Shown: positions 17,419 to 29,427 of the stretch, piece by piece | Position numbering within the stretch: position 1 is the first letter of the stretch | Layout: every line of letters starts with the position of its first letter | Origin: Candidatus Heimdallarchaeota archaeon | GTDB taxonomy: Archaea > Asgardarchaeota > Heimdallarchaeia > Heimdallarchaeales > Heimdallarchaeaceae | Assembly: GCA_016840095.1 (NCBI GenBank) | Contig: JAEOSZ010000006.1 | Span: 1-64,000 of the forward strand | Direction of reading: 5' to 3' | Length of the DNA stretch: 64,000 bases | Program-made: the position numbers and the translations under genes | The notes under the pieces: generated by a model | Database searches by the model: none | What the model saw: only the letters and a program-made list of their open reading frames with translations | What the model was told of the DNA's origin: nothing

Positions 17419-18552
17419 TTAAGAAATCAACTTGTAATAGATGGATTCAATTTGATCAGTTACATTGTCAAAAGCAAAATCTTTTCTGATTTTTTTTCTA
17501 GCTTTCTTTGCTGATTCAACTAGTTCATCATAGTTTTTAGAAGCAACAAAGATAGTTTCCTCTAATAGTTCTTCATTCCCAGCTTCAAACAGAACTCCGT
17601 TCTTACCATTGTCAAGCAGCCTTGGGATATCACCGATATCAGAAGCTATCACAGGAACACCCATAGCCAATGCTTCAATTATAGTTGTAGGAGAACCTTC
17701 CCAAAAACTTGGTTGTATCAAAATGTTTGTTTTTTCCAGAATATTAGGAATTTCCTTATGATTTACTGCTCCAAAGAGCTTAACTCTTTTTTCTTCTTTG
17801 AATTTAGATTCCAATGCGGAGAATAGTGAACCATCTCCCACAAACCAAAAGGAAATATTTTTTGTCTTTCTAATTATTCTATCTATAACTCGTGCATAGT
17901 ATGGTATTCCTTTCCAAGGTTCTAAATCTCCAATATAGGAAATCACAAATTCATTTTGAAGGCTTGGTGTTATTTCTGGAAAATGTTTTGGATTGATTGC
18001 ATTATTTATAATAACTATTCTCTCTAGATTGGAATGTATTGTTTCTTCTAATAATTTTGAATCTTGAAGACTAACGGAAGCAATTACATCAGCCTGAGAG
18101 AGAACAAATTTACCAAGGGTATAATCGAAAAATACTTTCGCAAATTCCTTCAAAAATCCCGTTTTGTAAGGAGGTCTTCCCACTCCCCCGTGTATATGGA
18201 GAAGCATTGGTGTTCCTTTTAGAAGCTTGTTTACTGCCGCCTGAATTGTTGTAAAATAAATATAAGAGTGAACATGAAAAATATCAACGTCTTTTAACTG
18301 CAACATTTTATGAAGCATAAAGCATGCAGGATTGATACCAAAAACATTCCATGGACTATAAAAACGGTGAACGGTCATATTTTGAAAATAACTCTGATAG
18401 GGAATTTTAGTACTGTTTTTCGTAGTAAAAACATCAATATGATGACCTCTGTTTGCAAGTTCATTAGAAAGATTACTTACATATCTTTCAGTACCTCCAT
18501 AACTTCTTGAACCGAAATAGGGAGTAACTTGAACTATTTTCAAGGGATCCAT
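17419..18552 (-). CDS. GT4 (GT-B) glycosyltransferase
   Basis: GG.E.Y, HVHS, KG, PS.WEG.P...IEA.A.G.PVIASD.G. Confidence 0.92.
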   Translation of the reverse strand: MDPLKIVQVTPYFGSRSYGGTERYVSNLSNELANRGHHIDVFTTKNSTKIPYQSYFQNMTVHRFYSPWNVFGINPACFMLHKMLQLKDVDIFHVHSYIYFTTIQAAVNKLLKGTPMLLHIHGGVGRPPYKTGFLKEFAKVFFDYTLGKFVLSQADVIASVSLQDSKLLEETIHSNLERIVIINNAINPKHFPEITPSLQNEFVISYIGDLEPWKGIPYYARVIDRIIRKTKNISFWFVGDGSLFSALESKFKEEKRVKLFGAVNHKEIPNILEKTNILIQPSFWEGSPTTIIEALAMGVPVIASDIGDIPRLLDNGKNGVLFEAGNEELLEETIFVASKNYDELVESAKKARKKIRKDFAFDNVTDQIESIYYKLIS

Positions 18553-18560
18553 TTTTTCAC

Positions 18561-27145: not shown

Positions 27146-28290
27146 TGGATAAGAAAAGAGTATGTTTTCTAACTCAAGAATATAGAAGAGGAGCTACCTG
27201 GATCTATTGTTATCAATTAGCAAGTCTACTTAATAAACAAGAAGAATGGGAAGCTCATATTATCTCTGCTGATAGAAACTATGAGGGAATTGAGGTAGAA
27301 AAGAAAGAATCCTTTGTATCTTTGGTAGAAACTTCAAAATCTAGATATTTCTATTCGAGAAGTTATTGGAAAAGATCAAATGATATTGTTAAACAATTGA
27401 AACCTGATATAATTCAAGGTAATATGAATCTATTATCTTCTCGGGGAATCAAGAACAAAACCCCCATTGTTGAAACAGTTCACACAACCTTTAGTAGAGA
27501 GAGAAGAGGAGTTGCTAAGTTGCCTTTGAAAGATTTAAGCTGGGTGGAGAAAAGGGTTCGTCTTTTATTTCCTTTGTTGAAATATATCGAGAAAAAAATC
27601 TTGAAAAGAGCAGCTCACCTGATAGCTGTTAGTCAAGCAATTAAAGAAGAACTAGTTAAGAACTATTCTATAGAAGAAGAAAGAATAACTGTTATTCCAA
27701 ATGGAGTAGATACGAGGATTCATAGTAAAACAGATGAAAGAATTTACACTAAAAAAGATAAAGAACTAGTTTTAGGTTTTCTTGGAAGAATGACTGCAGG
27801 TAAAGGGGCACATTTGATTTTTCCAATTATAAAGAAAATCAAAAATAAGATCCCCGATGTTAAATTACTCATTGCGGGAGATGATTTGGACTCTAAAAAG
27901 AAAATACTACACCAAATTGATAGACTAGGTTTAAATGAAAACATCATAGATTTTGGATATATTTATGATAATCATGAGAAAAACAAATTCTTTAGTTCAA
28001 TTGATTTGTTATTACTCCCTTCCAGCCATGAAGGTATGAGTCTGGTCTTGTTGGAAGCAATGGCTTGTCAAACCCCCGTATTAACAACACCAGAAGCAGA
28101 TACATTCGATCATGATGATACACTGTTAATTAGCAACAGAACTATTGATGATTTTGCTTCAAAAGCAGTTGAATTCTATAAGAATCAAGAAATAGTTGAA
28201 AAAATACAAAACAAATCTAGGGAAGTAGCTGAACGACTTTCTTGGAAGAAAACAACGGATCTAACAAAAGATGTTTTTGAAAAATTATAA
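27145..28290 (+). CDS. GT4 glycosyltransferase
   Basis: TVH, IAVS, IPNGVD, GR...KG, PS..EG.....LEAMA. Confidence 0.92.
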   Translation: MDKKRVCFLTQEYRRGATWIYCYQLASLLNKQEEWEAHIISADRNYEGIEVEKKESFVSLVETSKSRYFYSRSYWKRSNDIVKQLKPDIIQGNMNLLSSRGIKNKTPIVETVHTTFSRERRGVAKLPLKDLSWVEKRVRLLFPLLKYIEKKILKRAAHLIAVSQAIKEELVKNYSIEEERITVIPNGVDTRIHSKTDERIYTKKDKELVLGFLGRMTAGKGAHLIFPIIKKIKNKIPDVKLLIAGDDLDSKKKILHQIDRLGLNENIIDFGYIYDNHEKNKFFSSIDLLLLPSSHEGMSLVLLEAMACQTPVLTTPEADTFDHDDTLLISNRTIDDFASKAVEFYKNQEIVEKIQNKSREVAERLSWKKTTDLTKDVFEKL

Positions 28291-29427
28291 GGATGATTCT
28301 GTTTCATCATATTCTTTTTCTGTATCTATACTATTTTTACTTTCTAGTCTCTTTTTCTTCCTTATTTCCCTTCTTTCCTTCTTCCTTTGCTTTCTCTTCT
28401 CCTTTATTTCTTTTCTTTCACCTAAAGGAAGAATATATAACCAGAAGATAGGTAACCAAAGAATCAGCATCACATATCCAAGATAATTATGAATAGGACC
28501 ACCTACATCCCATCCATAAGCATAAGTTATTGCAGTTATAATCATGATTCTTAAAATATTGACTAGATATGTTCCAAGAATTCCAATTAATGTTACTAAT
28601 CCAACTCTAGTAAGAACCCAAAGGATTTTTGATAATCGAATACTAAAATCCTTGAAGAAAGCTTTCTTTCCATTTTCTTCTATAAACTGAGGTACATTTC
28701 GAAAATAAGTATTCAAATTTCTTGATATTGTTATAGTTCCTCTTTCATATCCCCAAAACAGACGTCGTCTTGCTTCAAAAAGCATTATCAAAAAGATTAC
28801 TGCAAAGATAGTAAGTGAATGTATGCCACTGCACTCTGCATTGATAAGAATAGCATCTTCTTGAGATGGAGGTTTTACAAAGTTTATTTGTGTCATAAAT
28901 GTAGTTGGATTCCAGACTACGCTGCTTATTTGCATCCCAAAAACCATTAAAATTGATGAAACAACGGTTCCTGTTAATTTTGTTAATTTCTTAGCAAGAT
29001 CTAATTCGAAAAGATATAGACTGAGTCCTGAGAAGATTAATGCATAAAATACTGTTGTTAATACAACCATATACAATCCTGGAGTTCGATATTTTTTGAA
29101 AAACTTGTCACCCCAGGAGATATAAAGAACCAGAATAAGGGCGAATATTAAACCCAATGGAACTAAAAGATCTGTTAGTATGTAACCTCCTAAAATTGGA
29201 GATAATTTGTTACCGCGATATGTTTCGTAAAGAATGTAAAAATATACAACAAATCCAAATAAAATTGCAGAAACAGAATATCTAAAATATCTATTTTTCA
29301 GATATGGGAGAGCAGGACCAAATAAATCATTTAACTTAGACTGAAACCAGTTAGGTTCTCTAGAAGGAATTGGTTCTGAATTGGTTGTTCTTAGTTCAGT
29401 ATTTTCTTGTAATGAATCATTCAACAT
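28285..29427 (-). CDS. exosortase/archaeosortase family transpeptidase
   Basis: Multi-TM; I.AECSG (Cys), N.LRI (Arg), H...G (His) catalytic pattern. Confidence 0.85.
   Translation of the reverse strand: MLNDSLQENTELRTTNSEPIPSREPNWFQSKLNDLFGPALPYLKNRYFRYSVSAILFGFVVYFYILYETYRGNKLSPILGGYILTDLLVPLGLIFALILVLYISWGDKFFKKYRTPGLYMVVLTTVFYALIFSGLSLYLFELDLAKKLTKLTGTVVSSILMVFGMQISSVVWNPTTFMTQINFVKPPSQEDAILINAECSGIHSLTIFAVIFLIMLFEARRRLFWGYERGTITISRNLNTYFRNVPQFIEENGKKAFFKDFSIRLSKILWVLTRVGLVTLIGILGTYLVNILRIMIITAITYAYGWDVGGPIHNYLGYVMLILWLPIFWLYILPLGERKEIKEKRKQRKKERREIRKKKRLESKNSIDTEKEYDETESSL

What the first reader, a model, noticed from the sequence alone, without database searches (positions are those of the whole stretch)
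17419..29427. Candidate undescribed surface-modification system: polyamine-type chemistry joined to glycosylation and a sortase
Seen: two tightly packed operons diverge from a 121-bp gap. The left arm is BpsA-like transferase, MBL hydrolase, GT-C-like membrane protein, GT4 (gaps 29, 8, 8 nt). The right arm is PLP decarboxylase, YkgJ, GT2, GT4, ArnD-like deacylase, GT4 (gaps 30 nt or less). An exosortase/archaeosortase converges on the right arm, overlapping it by 6 nt. Known: BpsA enzymes make branched polyamines in hyperthermophiles, and bacterial exosortase A (PEP-CTERM) loci carry LysA-like decarboxylases and polysaccharide deacetylases. Inference: the locus builds an amino sugar, frees its amine with the deacylase, aminopropylates it, and transfers it to surface proteins or their lipid anchor, giving a cationic glycan coat. 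I know of no described archaeal system that combines these parts.
Basis: partly seen in the sequence, partly recalled or inferred. Interest (0 to 1): 0.85.

Follow-up and report, generated by a model that had tools for sequence, protein, structure and literature searches.

The report
Aminopropylation pair beside sortase glycan genes
In a Heimdall (Asgard) archaeon, a gene pair that probably adds aminopropyl groups straight from SAM, without the usual SAM decarboxylase, lies inside a sugar-building gene set tied to the cell's only archaeosortase, but comparative genomics shows the two are separable.

Summary
All eleven ORFs, their gaps, the 121-bp divergent spacer and the 6-nt convergent overlap are as described, and the domain calls are right. 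The order is conserved in three genera of Heimdallarchaeaceae.

The single-system reading is only partly supported, because the locus splits into two modules that occur without each other.

Module A is a BpsA-family transferase, a LysA-like PLP decarboxylase and a CxxCxxCC protein, with or without an MBL hydrolase. It is present in all five genera of the family. Two of those genera, including complete genomes, lack every glycan and sortase gene.

In other lineages the transferase carries GDDD and is adjacent or fused to SAM decarboxylase. Here it carries GD[S/G]D, and no SAM decarboxylase was found in 31 family genomes. The decarboxylase has lost LysA specificity residues.

The best reading for Module A is transfer of the aminocarboxypropyl group from intact SAM followed by PLP decarboxylation, as in MccD/MccE. 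It may supply spermidine for hypusine.

Module B is GT2, three GT4, an ArnD-like deacylase, a GT-C-like protein and the archaeosortase. It is gained and lost as a unit, and its core occurs without Module A. It probably makes an amino-sugar glycolipid or glycan linked to sortase substrates.

This scan noted both modules earlier on other genomes. Nothing here is biochemically tested.

The parts
20938..22095 (-). Module A: long-form BpsA-family (DUF43) transferase, 385 aa. It has an N-terminal wHTH-like domain and a Cys pair. The catalytic domain carries GDSD (aa 164-167) and TDPPYT (aa 231-236). The C-terminus is a zinc ribbon (CxxC at aa 342 and 368).
   Evidence: PF01861, 1.7e-46. Tk-BpsA 5xnc, E 3e-32 over aa 42-297. 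GD[S/G]D in all 32 Heimdallarchaeaceae rows against GDDD in 62 of 64 other long-form homologues. In a quick tree the clade has 100 SH-aLRT support, with the G398 GDGD protein as sister.
20234..20908 (-). MBL-fold hydrolase, 224 aa. It travels with Module A in genus g12. It is missing from four same-genus loci and from the g13 locus, so it appears dispensable.
   Evidence: Lactamase_B, 5e-34. Presence and absence across loci.
22096..22216 (.). 121-bp AT-rich divergent spacer with TATA-like runs on both sides. It is the presumed promoter region for both arms.
   Evidence: Promoter function is inferred, not tested.
22217..23485 (+). Module A: alanine-racemase-fold PLP decarboxylase, 422 aa, LysA-derived but not LysA. 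Lys69, the HxH motif, GGG, E[LP]GR and Cys350 are kept. GANTLIPMRY (aa 317) and PLCLPVD (aa 348) are nearly invariant across the family orthologues; a few positions vary conservatively.
   Evidence: PF02784 and PF00278. lysA TIGR01048 scores 248.7, below its 297.9 cut-off. In alignments to four LysA structures the specificity-helix Arg is gapped and CE[ST] is replaced by CLP. It is the only family member in the genome. DapF was not found.
23516..24019 (+). Module A: CxxCxxCC (YkgJ-type) Cys-cluster protein, 167 aa, always directly downstream of the decarboxylase within the family. Its role is unknown.
   Evidence: PF03692, 2.5e-11. It is kept next to the decarboxylase in g12 and g13 after the glycan genes are gone.
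18561..20225 (-). Module B: polytopic membrane protein, 554 aa, GT-C-like (ArnT/PMT_2/AglB-like) as a lead only. G31-F32-D33 and D42 are invariant in the first loop.
   Evidence: No Pfam or NCBIfam family. Invariant loop residues. The nearest Atlas clusters score 0.98-0.99 and are auto-named Dol-P-oligosaccharide glycotransferase and RgtA/B/C/D-like, with PMT_2 on 12% of members of one cluster. The AF2 model was unusable, pLDDT 44.7.
17419..18552 (-). Module B: GT4 glycosyltransferase (GT4a), 377 aa.
   Evidence: Glyco_trans_1_4, Glycos_transf_1 and Glyco_transf_4. Absent from the g12 and g13 loci.
24028..25014 (+). Module B: GT2 with an N-terminal GT-A domain (DSD at aa 84) and hydrophobic C-terminal helices. 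This is the architecture of polyprenyl-phosphate sugar synthases such as ArnC, GtrB and DPMS.
   Evidence: PF00535, 4.8e-29. Sequence. No NCBIfam model reaches its cut-off.
25016..26245 (+). Module B core: GT4 (GT4b), 409 aa, BshA/MshA-like. It pairs with the ArnD-like gene even in distant Asgard families.
   Evidence: The GT4b and ArnD-like genes are adjacent at 42-43% and 30-33% identity in G025 and G308.
26258..27145 (+). Module B core: ArnD-like CE4 deacylase, 295 aa, with RVDVD and HGYNH motifs.
   Evidence: NF011923, 64.6 bits over nearly the full length but below the 382 cut-off. Sequence. Phyletic pattern.
27145..28290 (+). Module B: GT4 (GT4c), 381 aa.
28285..29427 (-). Module B: exosortase/archaeosortase-family protein, 380 aa. 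Cys200 lies in ECSG, Arg293 in NILR and His313 in IHNY. It has a variable insert and a K/R-rich tail. It is the only family member detected in the genome.
   Evidence: PF09721 at 41.3 bits and TIGR04178 at 30.7 bits, both above cut-off. Sole copy. Motifs. It co-varies with the ArnD-like gene across genera.
29579..29788 (-). 69-aa ribbon-helix-helix (CopG-type) protein directly upstream of the sortase on the same strand. It is a possible regulator.
   Evidence: ORF. RHH_1, 5.3e-10.
29975..30592 (-). Flank: NeuD/PglB/VioB-type hexapeptide sugar acetyltransferase. It is retained in g12 without Module B, so it is probably part of the backbone rather than the module.

Best explanation
The block is two functionally separable modules that are interleaved in three genera of Heimdallarchaeaceae.

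Module A comprises 20938-22095(-), 22217-23485(+) and 23516-24019(+), with or without the MBL gene at 20234-20908. It is read as an aminopropylation route that needs no decarboxylated SAM.
- The BpsA-family enzyme has lost the Asp that holds the dcSAM aminopropyl amine (GDDD to GDSD). It would transfer the 3-amino-3-carboxypropyl group of intact SAM to an acceptor.
- The LysA-derived PLP decarboxylase would then remove the carboxyl, leaving an aminopropyl group.
- This is the logic proposed for MccD/MccE in microcin C.
- The module replaced the DUF43-AdoMetDC fusion or operon found in sister lineages.
- The acceptor is not known. The most economical guess is agmatine or putrescine, giving spermidine for deoxyhypusine synthase.

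Module B comprises GT4a, the GT-C-like protein, GT2, GT4b, the ArnD-like deacylase, GT4c and the sole archaeosortase. It would build a lipid-linked glycan containing a de-N-acylated amino sugar by ArnC/ArnD/ArnT-like steps. It is tied to the sorting or anchoring of proteins that carry C-terminal signals.

Shown:
- The anatomy.
- The motif change.
- The partner swap.
- No AdoMetDC or DapF was found.
- The two modules dissociate in both directions.

Inferred:
- The donor.
- The order of the two steps.
- The acceptor.
- All of Module B's chemistry.
For: Separability:
- Genera g1, g10 and g11 carry the full block.
- g12 (G054) keeps the same backbone (MetRS ... Hexa-ThiF-orf137-RibI) but only YkgJ-PLPdc|DUF43-MBL.
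- g13 (two complete genomes, including Ca. Heimdallarchaeum endolithica PR6) keeps only the trio, between gyrB and CysRS.
- The ArnD-like and sortase queries hit g10 and g11 but not g12 or g13.
- G025 and G308 have the ArnD-like and GT4b genes, plus a sortase homologue on another contig (G025) or a weak sortase-like ORF 3 kb away (G308). Neither has the decarboxylase, and G025, the one checked, has no full-length match to the long-form transferase.

Partner swap:
- 35 of 62 non-family long-form DUF43 loci have an AdoMet_dc gene directly downstream.
- Sister Asgard families have DUF43-AdoMetDC fusions of 464-507 aa. P0080 shows a fusion as well, in the opposite domain order.
- AdoMet_dc is found in 159 of 400 phylum genomes but in 0 of 31 in this family, and in 0 of 34 genomes that hold the decarboxylase.

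Motif:
- GD[S/G]D occurs in every family member and in the sister G398 protein, against GDDD elsewhere.
- In Tk-BpsA, Asp159 and Asp160 position the dcSAM aminopropyl group and are essential (PMC12979288).

Decarboxylase:
- The catalytic residues are intact.
- The residues PMC7857480 names as specificity determinants are changed. These are the Arg on the specificity helix and the acidic residue next to Cys.
- No DapF was found.

Precedent: MccD plus the MccE N-terminal domain (PMC10491745; PMC8503589).

Need:
- Deoxyhypusine synthase is present in 5 of 5 genomes, pyruvoyl ArgDC in 4 of 5 and arginase-fold enzymes in 5 of 5.
- There is no convincing SpeE.
Against: - There is no biochemistry for any protein here.
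- The decarboxylase pocket keeps an Arg and shows no new acidic residue. That fits an anionic or neutral distal group better than a polycationic carboxyspermidine-like substrate.
- In three genera both arms begin with a Module A gene and continue without a break into Module B genes. That interleaving needs two events and suggests co-regulation.
- Many other Asgard families also lack AdoMetDC without having the pair.
- The GDxD variant has a single origin, so the correlations rest on one evolutionary event.
- Most genomes are MAGs of 72-95% completeness.
- The GT-C assignment is a lead only.
Confidence: 0.5

Rival explanations
1. One reading: one integrated system. The glycan genes build an amino sugar, the ArnD-like enzyme frees its amine, the BpsA-like enzyme (with the decarboxylase) aminopropylates it, and the product is attached to surface proteins or serves as their anchor through the sortase.
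For: Modules A and B share two tight operons diverging from one 121-bp spacer in g1, g10 and g11. The decarboxylase pocket suits a non-cationic distal group. The T9SS Wbp/Vim pathway shows that a CE4 deacetylase can expose the amine used to build a sortase linking sugar (PMC7468200).
Against: The modules dissociate in both directions: A occurs without B in g12, g13 and G398, and the B core occurs without A in G025 and G308. In every other lineage examined, the transferase's partner is AdoMetDC and no glycan genes from this cluster were detected nearby.
Confidence: 0.12
2. Reverse order. The PLP enzyme is a new PLP-dependent SAM decarboxylase that makes dcSAM, and the BpsA-like enzyme is an ordinary dcSAM aminopropyltransferase.
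For: It also explains the absence of AdoMetDC and the tight pairing. [quoted passage not shown]
Against: It gives no reason for the clade-wide loss of the Asp that binds the dcSAM amine. The pocket carries an Arg rather than acidic residues near where a sulfonium would lie. By my own recollection, not checked here, all known SAM decarboxylases are pyruvoyl enzymes.
Confidence: 0.15
3. Ordinary polyamine or lysine enzymes. The PLP enzyme is a DAP, Lys, Orn or Arg decarboxylase that supplies a diamine or lysine. The BpsA-like enzyme uses an aminopropyl donor made elsewhere, or imported.
For: The best NCBIfam hit is lysA (248.7 bits) and the top PDB hits are DAP decarboxylases. LysA-derived Orn/Lys decarboxylases are known (PMC8503589).
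Against: The score is below the lysA cut-off in all five genomes. The acidic residue beside Cys that binds the side-chain amine in DAPDC, ODC and ADC is Leu here. DapF was not found in 5 of 5 genomes. A pyruvoyl ArgDC already supplies agmatine. No dcSAM source was found.
Confidence: 0.12
4. No pathway at all. The neighbours reflect inherited synteny, and the BpsA-like protein (wHTH plus a methyltransferase fold) acts as a methyltransferase or regulator.
For: The housekeeping flanks are syntenic too. There is a weak N6-adenine methylase and HemK resemblance, and a DPPY-type motif.
Against: The transferase-decarboxylase pair survives three different genomic contexts at 38-59% identity. The motif changes in both proteins are clade-wide and coincide.
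Confidence: 0.08

Closest known systems
MccD plus the MccE N-terminal domain (aminopropylation of microcin C, E. coli)
   Same: A SAM-binding methyltransferase-fold enzyme is paired with an alanine-racemase-fold PLP decarboxylase of the DAPDC clade. The proposed sequence is aminocarboxypropyl transfer from intact SAM followed by decarboxylation to aminopropyl (PMC10491745, PMC8503589, PMC7857480).
   Different: The transferase here belongs to the BpsA/DUF43 family, and homology to MccD was not tested. The setting is an archaeal chromosomal module present across a whole family rather than an antibiotic cluster. A CxxCxxCC protein is an added partner. The acceptor is unknown.
BpsA, N4-bis(aminopropyl)spermidine synthase (EC 2.5.1.128; Tk-BpsA 5xnc, Tt-BpsA 6j27)
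   Same: It shares the PF01861 domain, the N-terminal domain and the TDPPxT and NEY motifs. About 256 residues align at E 3e-32.
   Different: The motif is GDSD instead of the essential GDDD. Tk Glu259 is Pro here. There is no C-terminal acidic carrier cluster, and a zinc ribbon takes its place. The genome has no AdoMetDC. The organism's GC content is 33% and nothing suggests it is a thermophile.
Carboxyspermidine and carboxyaminopropylagmatine routes (CASDH/CASDC; CAPADH/CAPADC)
   Same: These are spermidine routes that avoid dcSAM. They pass through an N-(3-amino-3-carboxypropyl) intermediate that an AR-fold PLP enzyme decarboxylates.
   Different: There the carboxyaminopropyl group comes from aspartate semialdehyde through a dehydrogenase. 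Here it would come from SAM through a transferase. The decarboxylase here is LysA-derived, not CASDC-type, and no aspartate is seen in the region aligned to the LysA specificity helix, where CASDC uses one. CAPADH and CAPADC are recalled from memory.
Bacterial Arn pathway (ArnC, ArnD, ArnT), exosortase-EPS loci and the T9SS Wbp/Vim linking sugar
   Same: A membrane GT2, an ArnD-like deacylase and a GT-C-like polytopic protein lie next to a Cys-Arg-His exo/archaeosortase and GT4 genes. In Wbp/Vim a CE4 deacetylase exposes the amine on which the sortase linking sugar is completed (PMC7468200). Exosortase loci are associated with EPS genes (PMC1569441).
   Different: The ArnD model scores far below its cut-off. 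No Ara4N-synthesis genes (ArnA, ArnB) are present. The host is archaeal with polyprenyl or dolichol carriers. The sortase is the genome's only one and looks like a general enzyme. None of this has been shown in archaea.

Membership tests
BpsA (EC 2.5.1.128) | PF01861 catalytic domain | tested here: met
   158.9 bits against a cut-off of 27. Aligns to 5xnc at E 3e-32.
BpsA (EC 2.5.1.128) | GDDD motif, in which Asp159 and Asp160 position the dcSAM aminopropyl group | tested here: not met
   GDSD at aa 164-167. GD[S/G]D throughout the clade. Role of the motif from PMC12979288.
BpsA (EC 2.5.1.128) | C-terminal acidic cluster that carries the aminopropyl group | tested here: not met
   The C-terminus is a CxxC...CxxC zinc ribbon followed by a short Lys-rich tail.
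BpsA (EC 2.5.1.128) | A dcSAM supply (AdoMetDC) in the genome | tested here: not met
   PF02675 was not found in G000, in five relatives including a complete genome, or in 0 of 31 family genomes, with positive controls. The search for the eukaryotic-type PF01536 was uninformative because its controls did not ring.
LysA / meso-DAP decarboxylase (TIGR01048) | Score at or above the curated cut-off | tested here: not met
   236-266 bits in five genomes against a cut-off of 297.9.
LysA / meso-DAP decarboxylase (TIGR01048) | Specificity-helix Arg and an acidic residue beside the catalytic Cys | tested here: not met
   The Arg column is gapped in the four printed LysA-structure alignments, covering three species (an Arg lies three residues later). 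CE[ST] is replaced by CLP.
LysA / meso-DAP decarboxylase (TIGR01048) | A DAP pathway in the genome (DapF) | tested here: not met
   PF01678 was not found in 5 of 5 genomes, with positive controls.
Exosortase-A-associated PLP decarboxylase (TIGR03099) | Score at or above the curated cut-off | tested here: not met
   166.2 bits against a cut-off of 478.45.
MccD/MccE-type two-step aminopropylation | A SAM-fold transferase paired with an AR-fold PLP decarboxylase of the DAPDC clade | tested here: met
   The pair is head-to-head in all five genera of the family and lies 3.5 kb apart in G398.
MccD/MccE-type two-step aminopropylation | Aminocarboxypropyl transfer from intact SAM followed by decarboxylation | not testable with these tools
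   This needs enzyme assays.
Exosortase/archaeosortase | Family signature above cut-off and a Cys-Arg-His triad | tested here: met
   PF09721 at 41.3 bits (cut-off 25.7) and TIGR04178 at 30.7 bits (cut-off 23). ECSG, NILR and IHNY motifs. No named Art or Xrt subfamily reaches its cut-off.
Exosortase/archaeosortase | Cognate C-terminal tripartite sorting signals in the genome | tested here: inconclusive
   212 ORFs have a C-terminal TM helix and a basic tail. PEF occurs in 4.7% of these tails against 0.3% of background, and [EK]T[SN]/K[TA]x-type motifs in 24.5% against 5.3%. No profile or cleavage evidence was obtained.
ArnD (NF011923) | Score at or above the curated cut-off | tested here: not met
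   64.6 bits against 382, although the match is nearly full length and DxD and HxxxH motifs are present. It is ArnD-like only.
GT-C glycosyltransferases | The GT-C fold and an acidic motif in the first external loop | tested here: inconclusive
   Invariant GFD and D42. Atlas neighbours score 0.98-0.99. There is no Pfam hit and the AF2 pLDDT is 44.7.

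The most novel reading that the evidence does not exclude
In the three genera where the modules are interleaved, they cooperate in a GPI-like anchoring system. GT4b and the ArnD-like enzyme would make a glucosaminyl lipid. 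The GT2 and GT-C-like steps would extend it on the outer face. Module A would add an aminopropyl (or aminocarboxypropyl) arm whose primary amine is the nucleophile with which the sole archaeosortase joins some 100 or more surface proteins carrying C-terminal signals to the glycolipid. That arm would be the counterpart of the ethanolamine-phosphate bridge of eukaryotic GPI, in the archaeal family placed nearest to eukaryotes.
Probability: 0.1. Interest if true: 0.9.

Novelty: new variant of a known kind. Interest (0 to 1): 0.6.

Why it matters
If Module A works as read, it would be a further natural way to make aminopropyl groups, and probably spermidine, without SAM decarboxylase. It uses a BpsA-family enzyme re-tuned for intact SAM and a repurposed lysine-pathway decarboxylase. 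It would have displaced the standard Asgard enzyme in a family often placed near the root of eukaryotes.

That bears on what polyamine and hypusine pathway the archaeal ancestor of eukaryotes could have had. It also gives a clean natural experiment on how aminopropyltransferases tell SAM from dcSAM (GDDD against GDSD).

Module B offers a concrete candidate for an open question in archaeal cell-surface biology: what exo- and archaeosortase substrates are attached to.

Both ideas can be tested with a handful of recombinant proteins.

Tried and rejected
Contexts were obtained instead with the search for related loci, the genome search and the fetch from genomes.
- The AF2 model of the 554-aa membrane protein, built from a 13-sequence alignment, was unusable at pLDDT 44.7. 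No fold search was run.
- The LysA reading was rejected.
- Membership of the exosortase-A decarboxylase family was rejected.
- The only Spermine_synth hit in the genome is a generic methyltransferase-fold protein with a partial 29-bit match. It is not accepted as SpeE.
- The 80-aa ORF at 17114-17356 is not a membrane protein or a flippase.
- The PF01536 search was uninformative because its controls did not ring.
- Pfam PF09721 missed known orthologues in G051, so absence of the sortase was judged from the protein query with positive controls.
- The sortase homologue of G025 has no glycan neighbours on its 12-kb contig.
- The metagenome scan added more family loci but no new independent lineage of the pair.
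- The careful tree search did not finish, so the quick tree was used.

Full report
**Observation**

Pfam and NCBIfam confirm most of the labels:
- BpsA_C.
- An MBL hydrolase.
- Three GT4 enzymes.
- A GT2.
- An Orn/DAP/Arg-type PLP decarboxylase.
- A CxxCxxCC protein.
- An ArnD-like deacylase, well below the ArnD cut-off.
- An exosortase/archaeosortase-family protein, above both family cut-offs.

The 554-aa membrane protein matches no family. Names attached to homologues place the organism in Heimdallarchaeaceae. Ribophorin I lies nearby.

**Conservation**

The full order, from MetRS through GT4a, the 554-aa protein, MBL (sometimes absent), DUF43 | PLPdc, YkgJ, GT2, GT4b, ArnD-like and GT4c, with the sortase convergent, then Hexa and ThiF, is present in 16 of 16 same-genus loci. 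Protein identities there are 39-89%. The same order appears in genera g10 and g11 and on metagenome contigs. The housekeeping flanks are syntenic as well, so comparisons beyond the genus were needed.

**The block splits in two**

Within the family (f1, five genera) the decarboxylase and the long-form DUF43 gene are essentially universal. The decarboxylase is found in 29 of the 30 other family genomes.
- Genus g12 (G054) keeps the same backbone, RibI-orf137-ThiF-Hexa on one side and MetRS on the other. Between them are only YkgJ-PLPdc | DUF43-MBL.
- Genus g13 has two complete genomes, one of them Ca. Heimdallarchaeum endolithica PR6. It keeps only YkgJ-PLPdc | DUF43, set among gyrB, an amino-acid kinase, an enoyl-CoA hydratase and CysRS.
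- Queries with the ArnD-like protein and the sortase hit g10 and g11, which serve as positive controls. They find nothing in g12 or g13. The 554-aa protein query, run on PR6 only, also found nothing.
- In a distant family, G398 has a sister DUF43 (GDGD) 3.5 kb from a 41%-identical decarboxylase that carries the same CLP motif. Kelch-repeat genes lie between them.
- Conversely, G025 (family f2) and G308 (f28) have an adjacent ArnD-like/GT4b pair plus a sortase (G025, on another contig) or a weak sortase-like gene (G308). Neither has the decarboxylase. G025, the only one of the two checked, has no full-length match to the long-form DUF43.

So Module A (DUF43, PLPdc, YkgJ, with or without MBL) and Module B (GT4a, the 554-aa protein, GT2, GT4b, ArnD-like, GT4c, sortase) each occur without the other. 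Module B is gained or lost as a unit that includes the sortase.

**Module A: the transferase**

The transferase aligns with Tk-BpsA (E 3e-32) but differs at defining points.
- The GDDD motif is GDSD here. The review PMC12979288 says the motif is indispensable, because Asp159 and Asp160 salt-bridge the dcSAM aminopropyl group.
- GD[S/G]D is found in every family member, against GDDD in 62 of 64 other long-form homologues.
- Tk Glu259 is Pro here.
- A zinc ribbon replaces the C-terminal acidic carrier cluster.

**Module A: the partner swap**

Outside this family the partner gene is SAM decarboxylase.
- 35 of 62 loci have an AdoMet_dc gene directly downstream.
- Sister Asgard families carry DUF43-AdoMetDC fusions of 464-507 aa.
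- AdoMet_dc is found in 159 of 400 genomes of the phylum. It is found in none of the 31 family genomes and in none of the 34 genomes that hold the decarboxylase.

**Module A: the decarboxylase**

The decarboxylase is the only member of its fold family in the genome. It keeps the PLP lysine, the HxH motif, GGG, E[PL]GR and the catalytic Cys. It scores below the lysA cut-off in all five genomes tested.

At the two elements that PMC7857480 names as specificity determinants it differs from DAPDC, ODC and ADC:
- The specificity-helix Arg column is gapped, although an Arg lies three residues later.
- The acidic residue beside the Cys is Leu-Pro.

DapF was not found in five genomes, including a complete one.

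**Module A: mechanism**

The simplest reading is that a decarboxylase acting before transfer (AdoMetDC) was replaced by one acting after transfer. The steps would be aminocarboxypropyl transfer from intact SAM, then PLP decarboxylation.

This is the route proposed for MccD and the AR-fold N-terminal domain of MccE in microcin C (PMC10491745; PMC8503589). The reverse order has not been ruled out even for that system, and it is kept here as a rival.

These genomes have deoxyhypusine synthase, a pyruvoyl arginine decarboxylase and arginase-fold enzymes, but no convincing SpeE. A spermidine-type product would therefore fill a visible gap.

Against a polyamine acceptor, the decarboxylase pocket shows an Arg and no new acidic residue. 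The acceptor remains open.

**Module B**

- The GT2 has a GT-A domain followed by C-terminal hydrophobic helices, which is the architecture of ArnC, GtrB and DPMS.
- The deacylase matches ArnD over nearly its full length and has DxD and HxxxH motifs.
- The 554-aa protein has invariant Asp residues in its first loop. Its nearest Atlas clusters are auto-named Dol-P-oligosaccharide glycotransferase and RgtA-D-like, and PMT_2 is found on a minority of members of one cluster. Its AF2 model failed.
- The sortase has the Cys-Arg-His pattern and is the only family member in the genome.
- The genome encodes about 212 ORFs with a C-terminal TM helix and a basic tail. PEF-type and [EK]T[SN]-type motifs are enriched in those tails.
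- A small RHH protein lies directly upstream of the sortase.

The ArnC/ArnD/ArnT-like logic, and an analogy with the T9SS Wbp/Vim linking sugar (PMC7468200), suggest an amino-sugar glycolipid or glycan that serves sortase substrates. This is inference only.

**Do the modules talk to each other?**

In g1, g10 and g11 both arms start with a Module A gene and run on into Module B genes, with gaps of at most 30 nt. This arrangement needs two events and argues for co-regulation. An aminopropylated glycan or anchor therefore cannot be excluded in these genera. The dissociation in both directions makes it the less likely reading.

In the quick gene tree g13 nests among lineages that have the full block. 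That suggests Module B was lost secondarily while Module A was kept.

**Earlier notes of this scan**

Notes on this stretch suggested the GDSD idea and the Arn-like logic, and I tested both. Follow-up reports on other genomes reached the same readings:
- An aminopropylation pair without SAM decarboxylase, with MccD/MccE as the closest known system.
- An archaeosortase-linked amino-sugar cluster.
- DUF43-AdoMetDC fusions.

I reached the MccD/MccE and fusion points from my own searches before reading those reports (then 94-95).

**Verdict**

- The locus contains two undescribed variants of known kinds rather than one categorically new system.

Noticed in passing
window 29579-29788 (-): An unannotated 69-aa ribbon-helix-helix (CopG-type) ORF lies between the hexapeptide acetyltransferase and the archaeosortase on the same strand. 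It may regulate the sortase.
   Followed up: partly
G000 contig C122:93219-94004 (outside the window): A second, short DUF43 paralogue of about 289 aa is present in every genome of the genus. It has GDMD in place of GDDD and EPPMT in place of DPPYT, so it too is unlikely to be a dcSAM aminopropyltransferase.
   Followed up: partly
L127-L130 (G059, G185, G320, G075): Sister Asgard families encode single proteins of 464-507 aa that fuse a long-form DUF43 domain to a C-terminal AdoMet decarboxylase domain. By ORF length, most AdoMet_dc hits in families f5 and f20 are of this kind.
   Followed up: partly
whole genome G000: About 212 ORFs of at least 150 aa end in a hydrophobic helix and a K/R tail. 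Many have PEF/xEF or [EK]T[SN]F-like motifs just before the helix. That is a very large candidate substrate set for a single archaeosortase.
   Followed up: partly
L065 and related Paenibacillus, Chloroflexota and Actinomycetota loci: In bacteria, long-form DUF43 (GDDD) genes are often followed by a GNAT (14 loci) and a HAD-like protein (16 loci). In seven loci, Paenibacillus L065 among them, they sit beside an ORF of about 2,150 aa and a DMFA2_C-domain protein. This suggests natural-product or acylated-polyamine cassettes.
   Followed up: no
L042:3062-6871 (-): The gyrB gene next to the trio in Ca. Heimdallarchaeum endolithica PR6 carries an intein with a LAGLIDADG homing-endonuclease domain.
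   Followed up: no
L142 (metagenome contig Ga0164318_10016476): This is a variant locus in which ThiF and orf137 directly precede PLPdc, YkgJ and a divergent GT2 (32% identity). No DUF43 is detected on the 7.2-kb contig, so the pair may be unlinked in some lineage.
   Followed up: no
window 31936-34029 (-): A ribophorin I homologue (PF04597, 2.7e-15) lies 2.5 kb from the sortase. It stays syntenic in g12, where Module B is absent.
   Followed up: no
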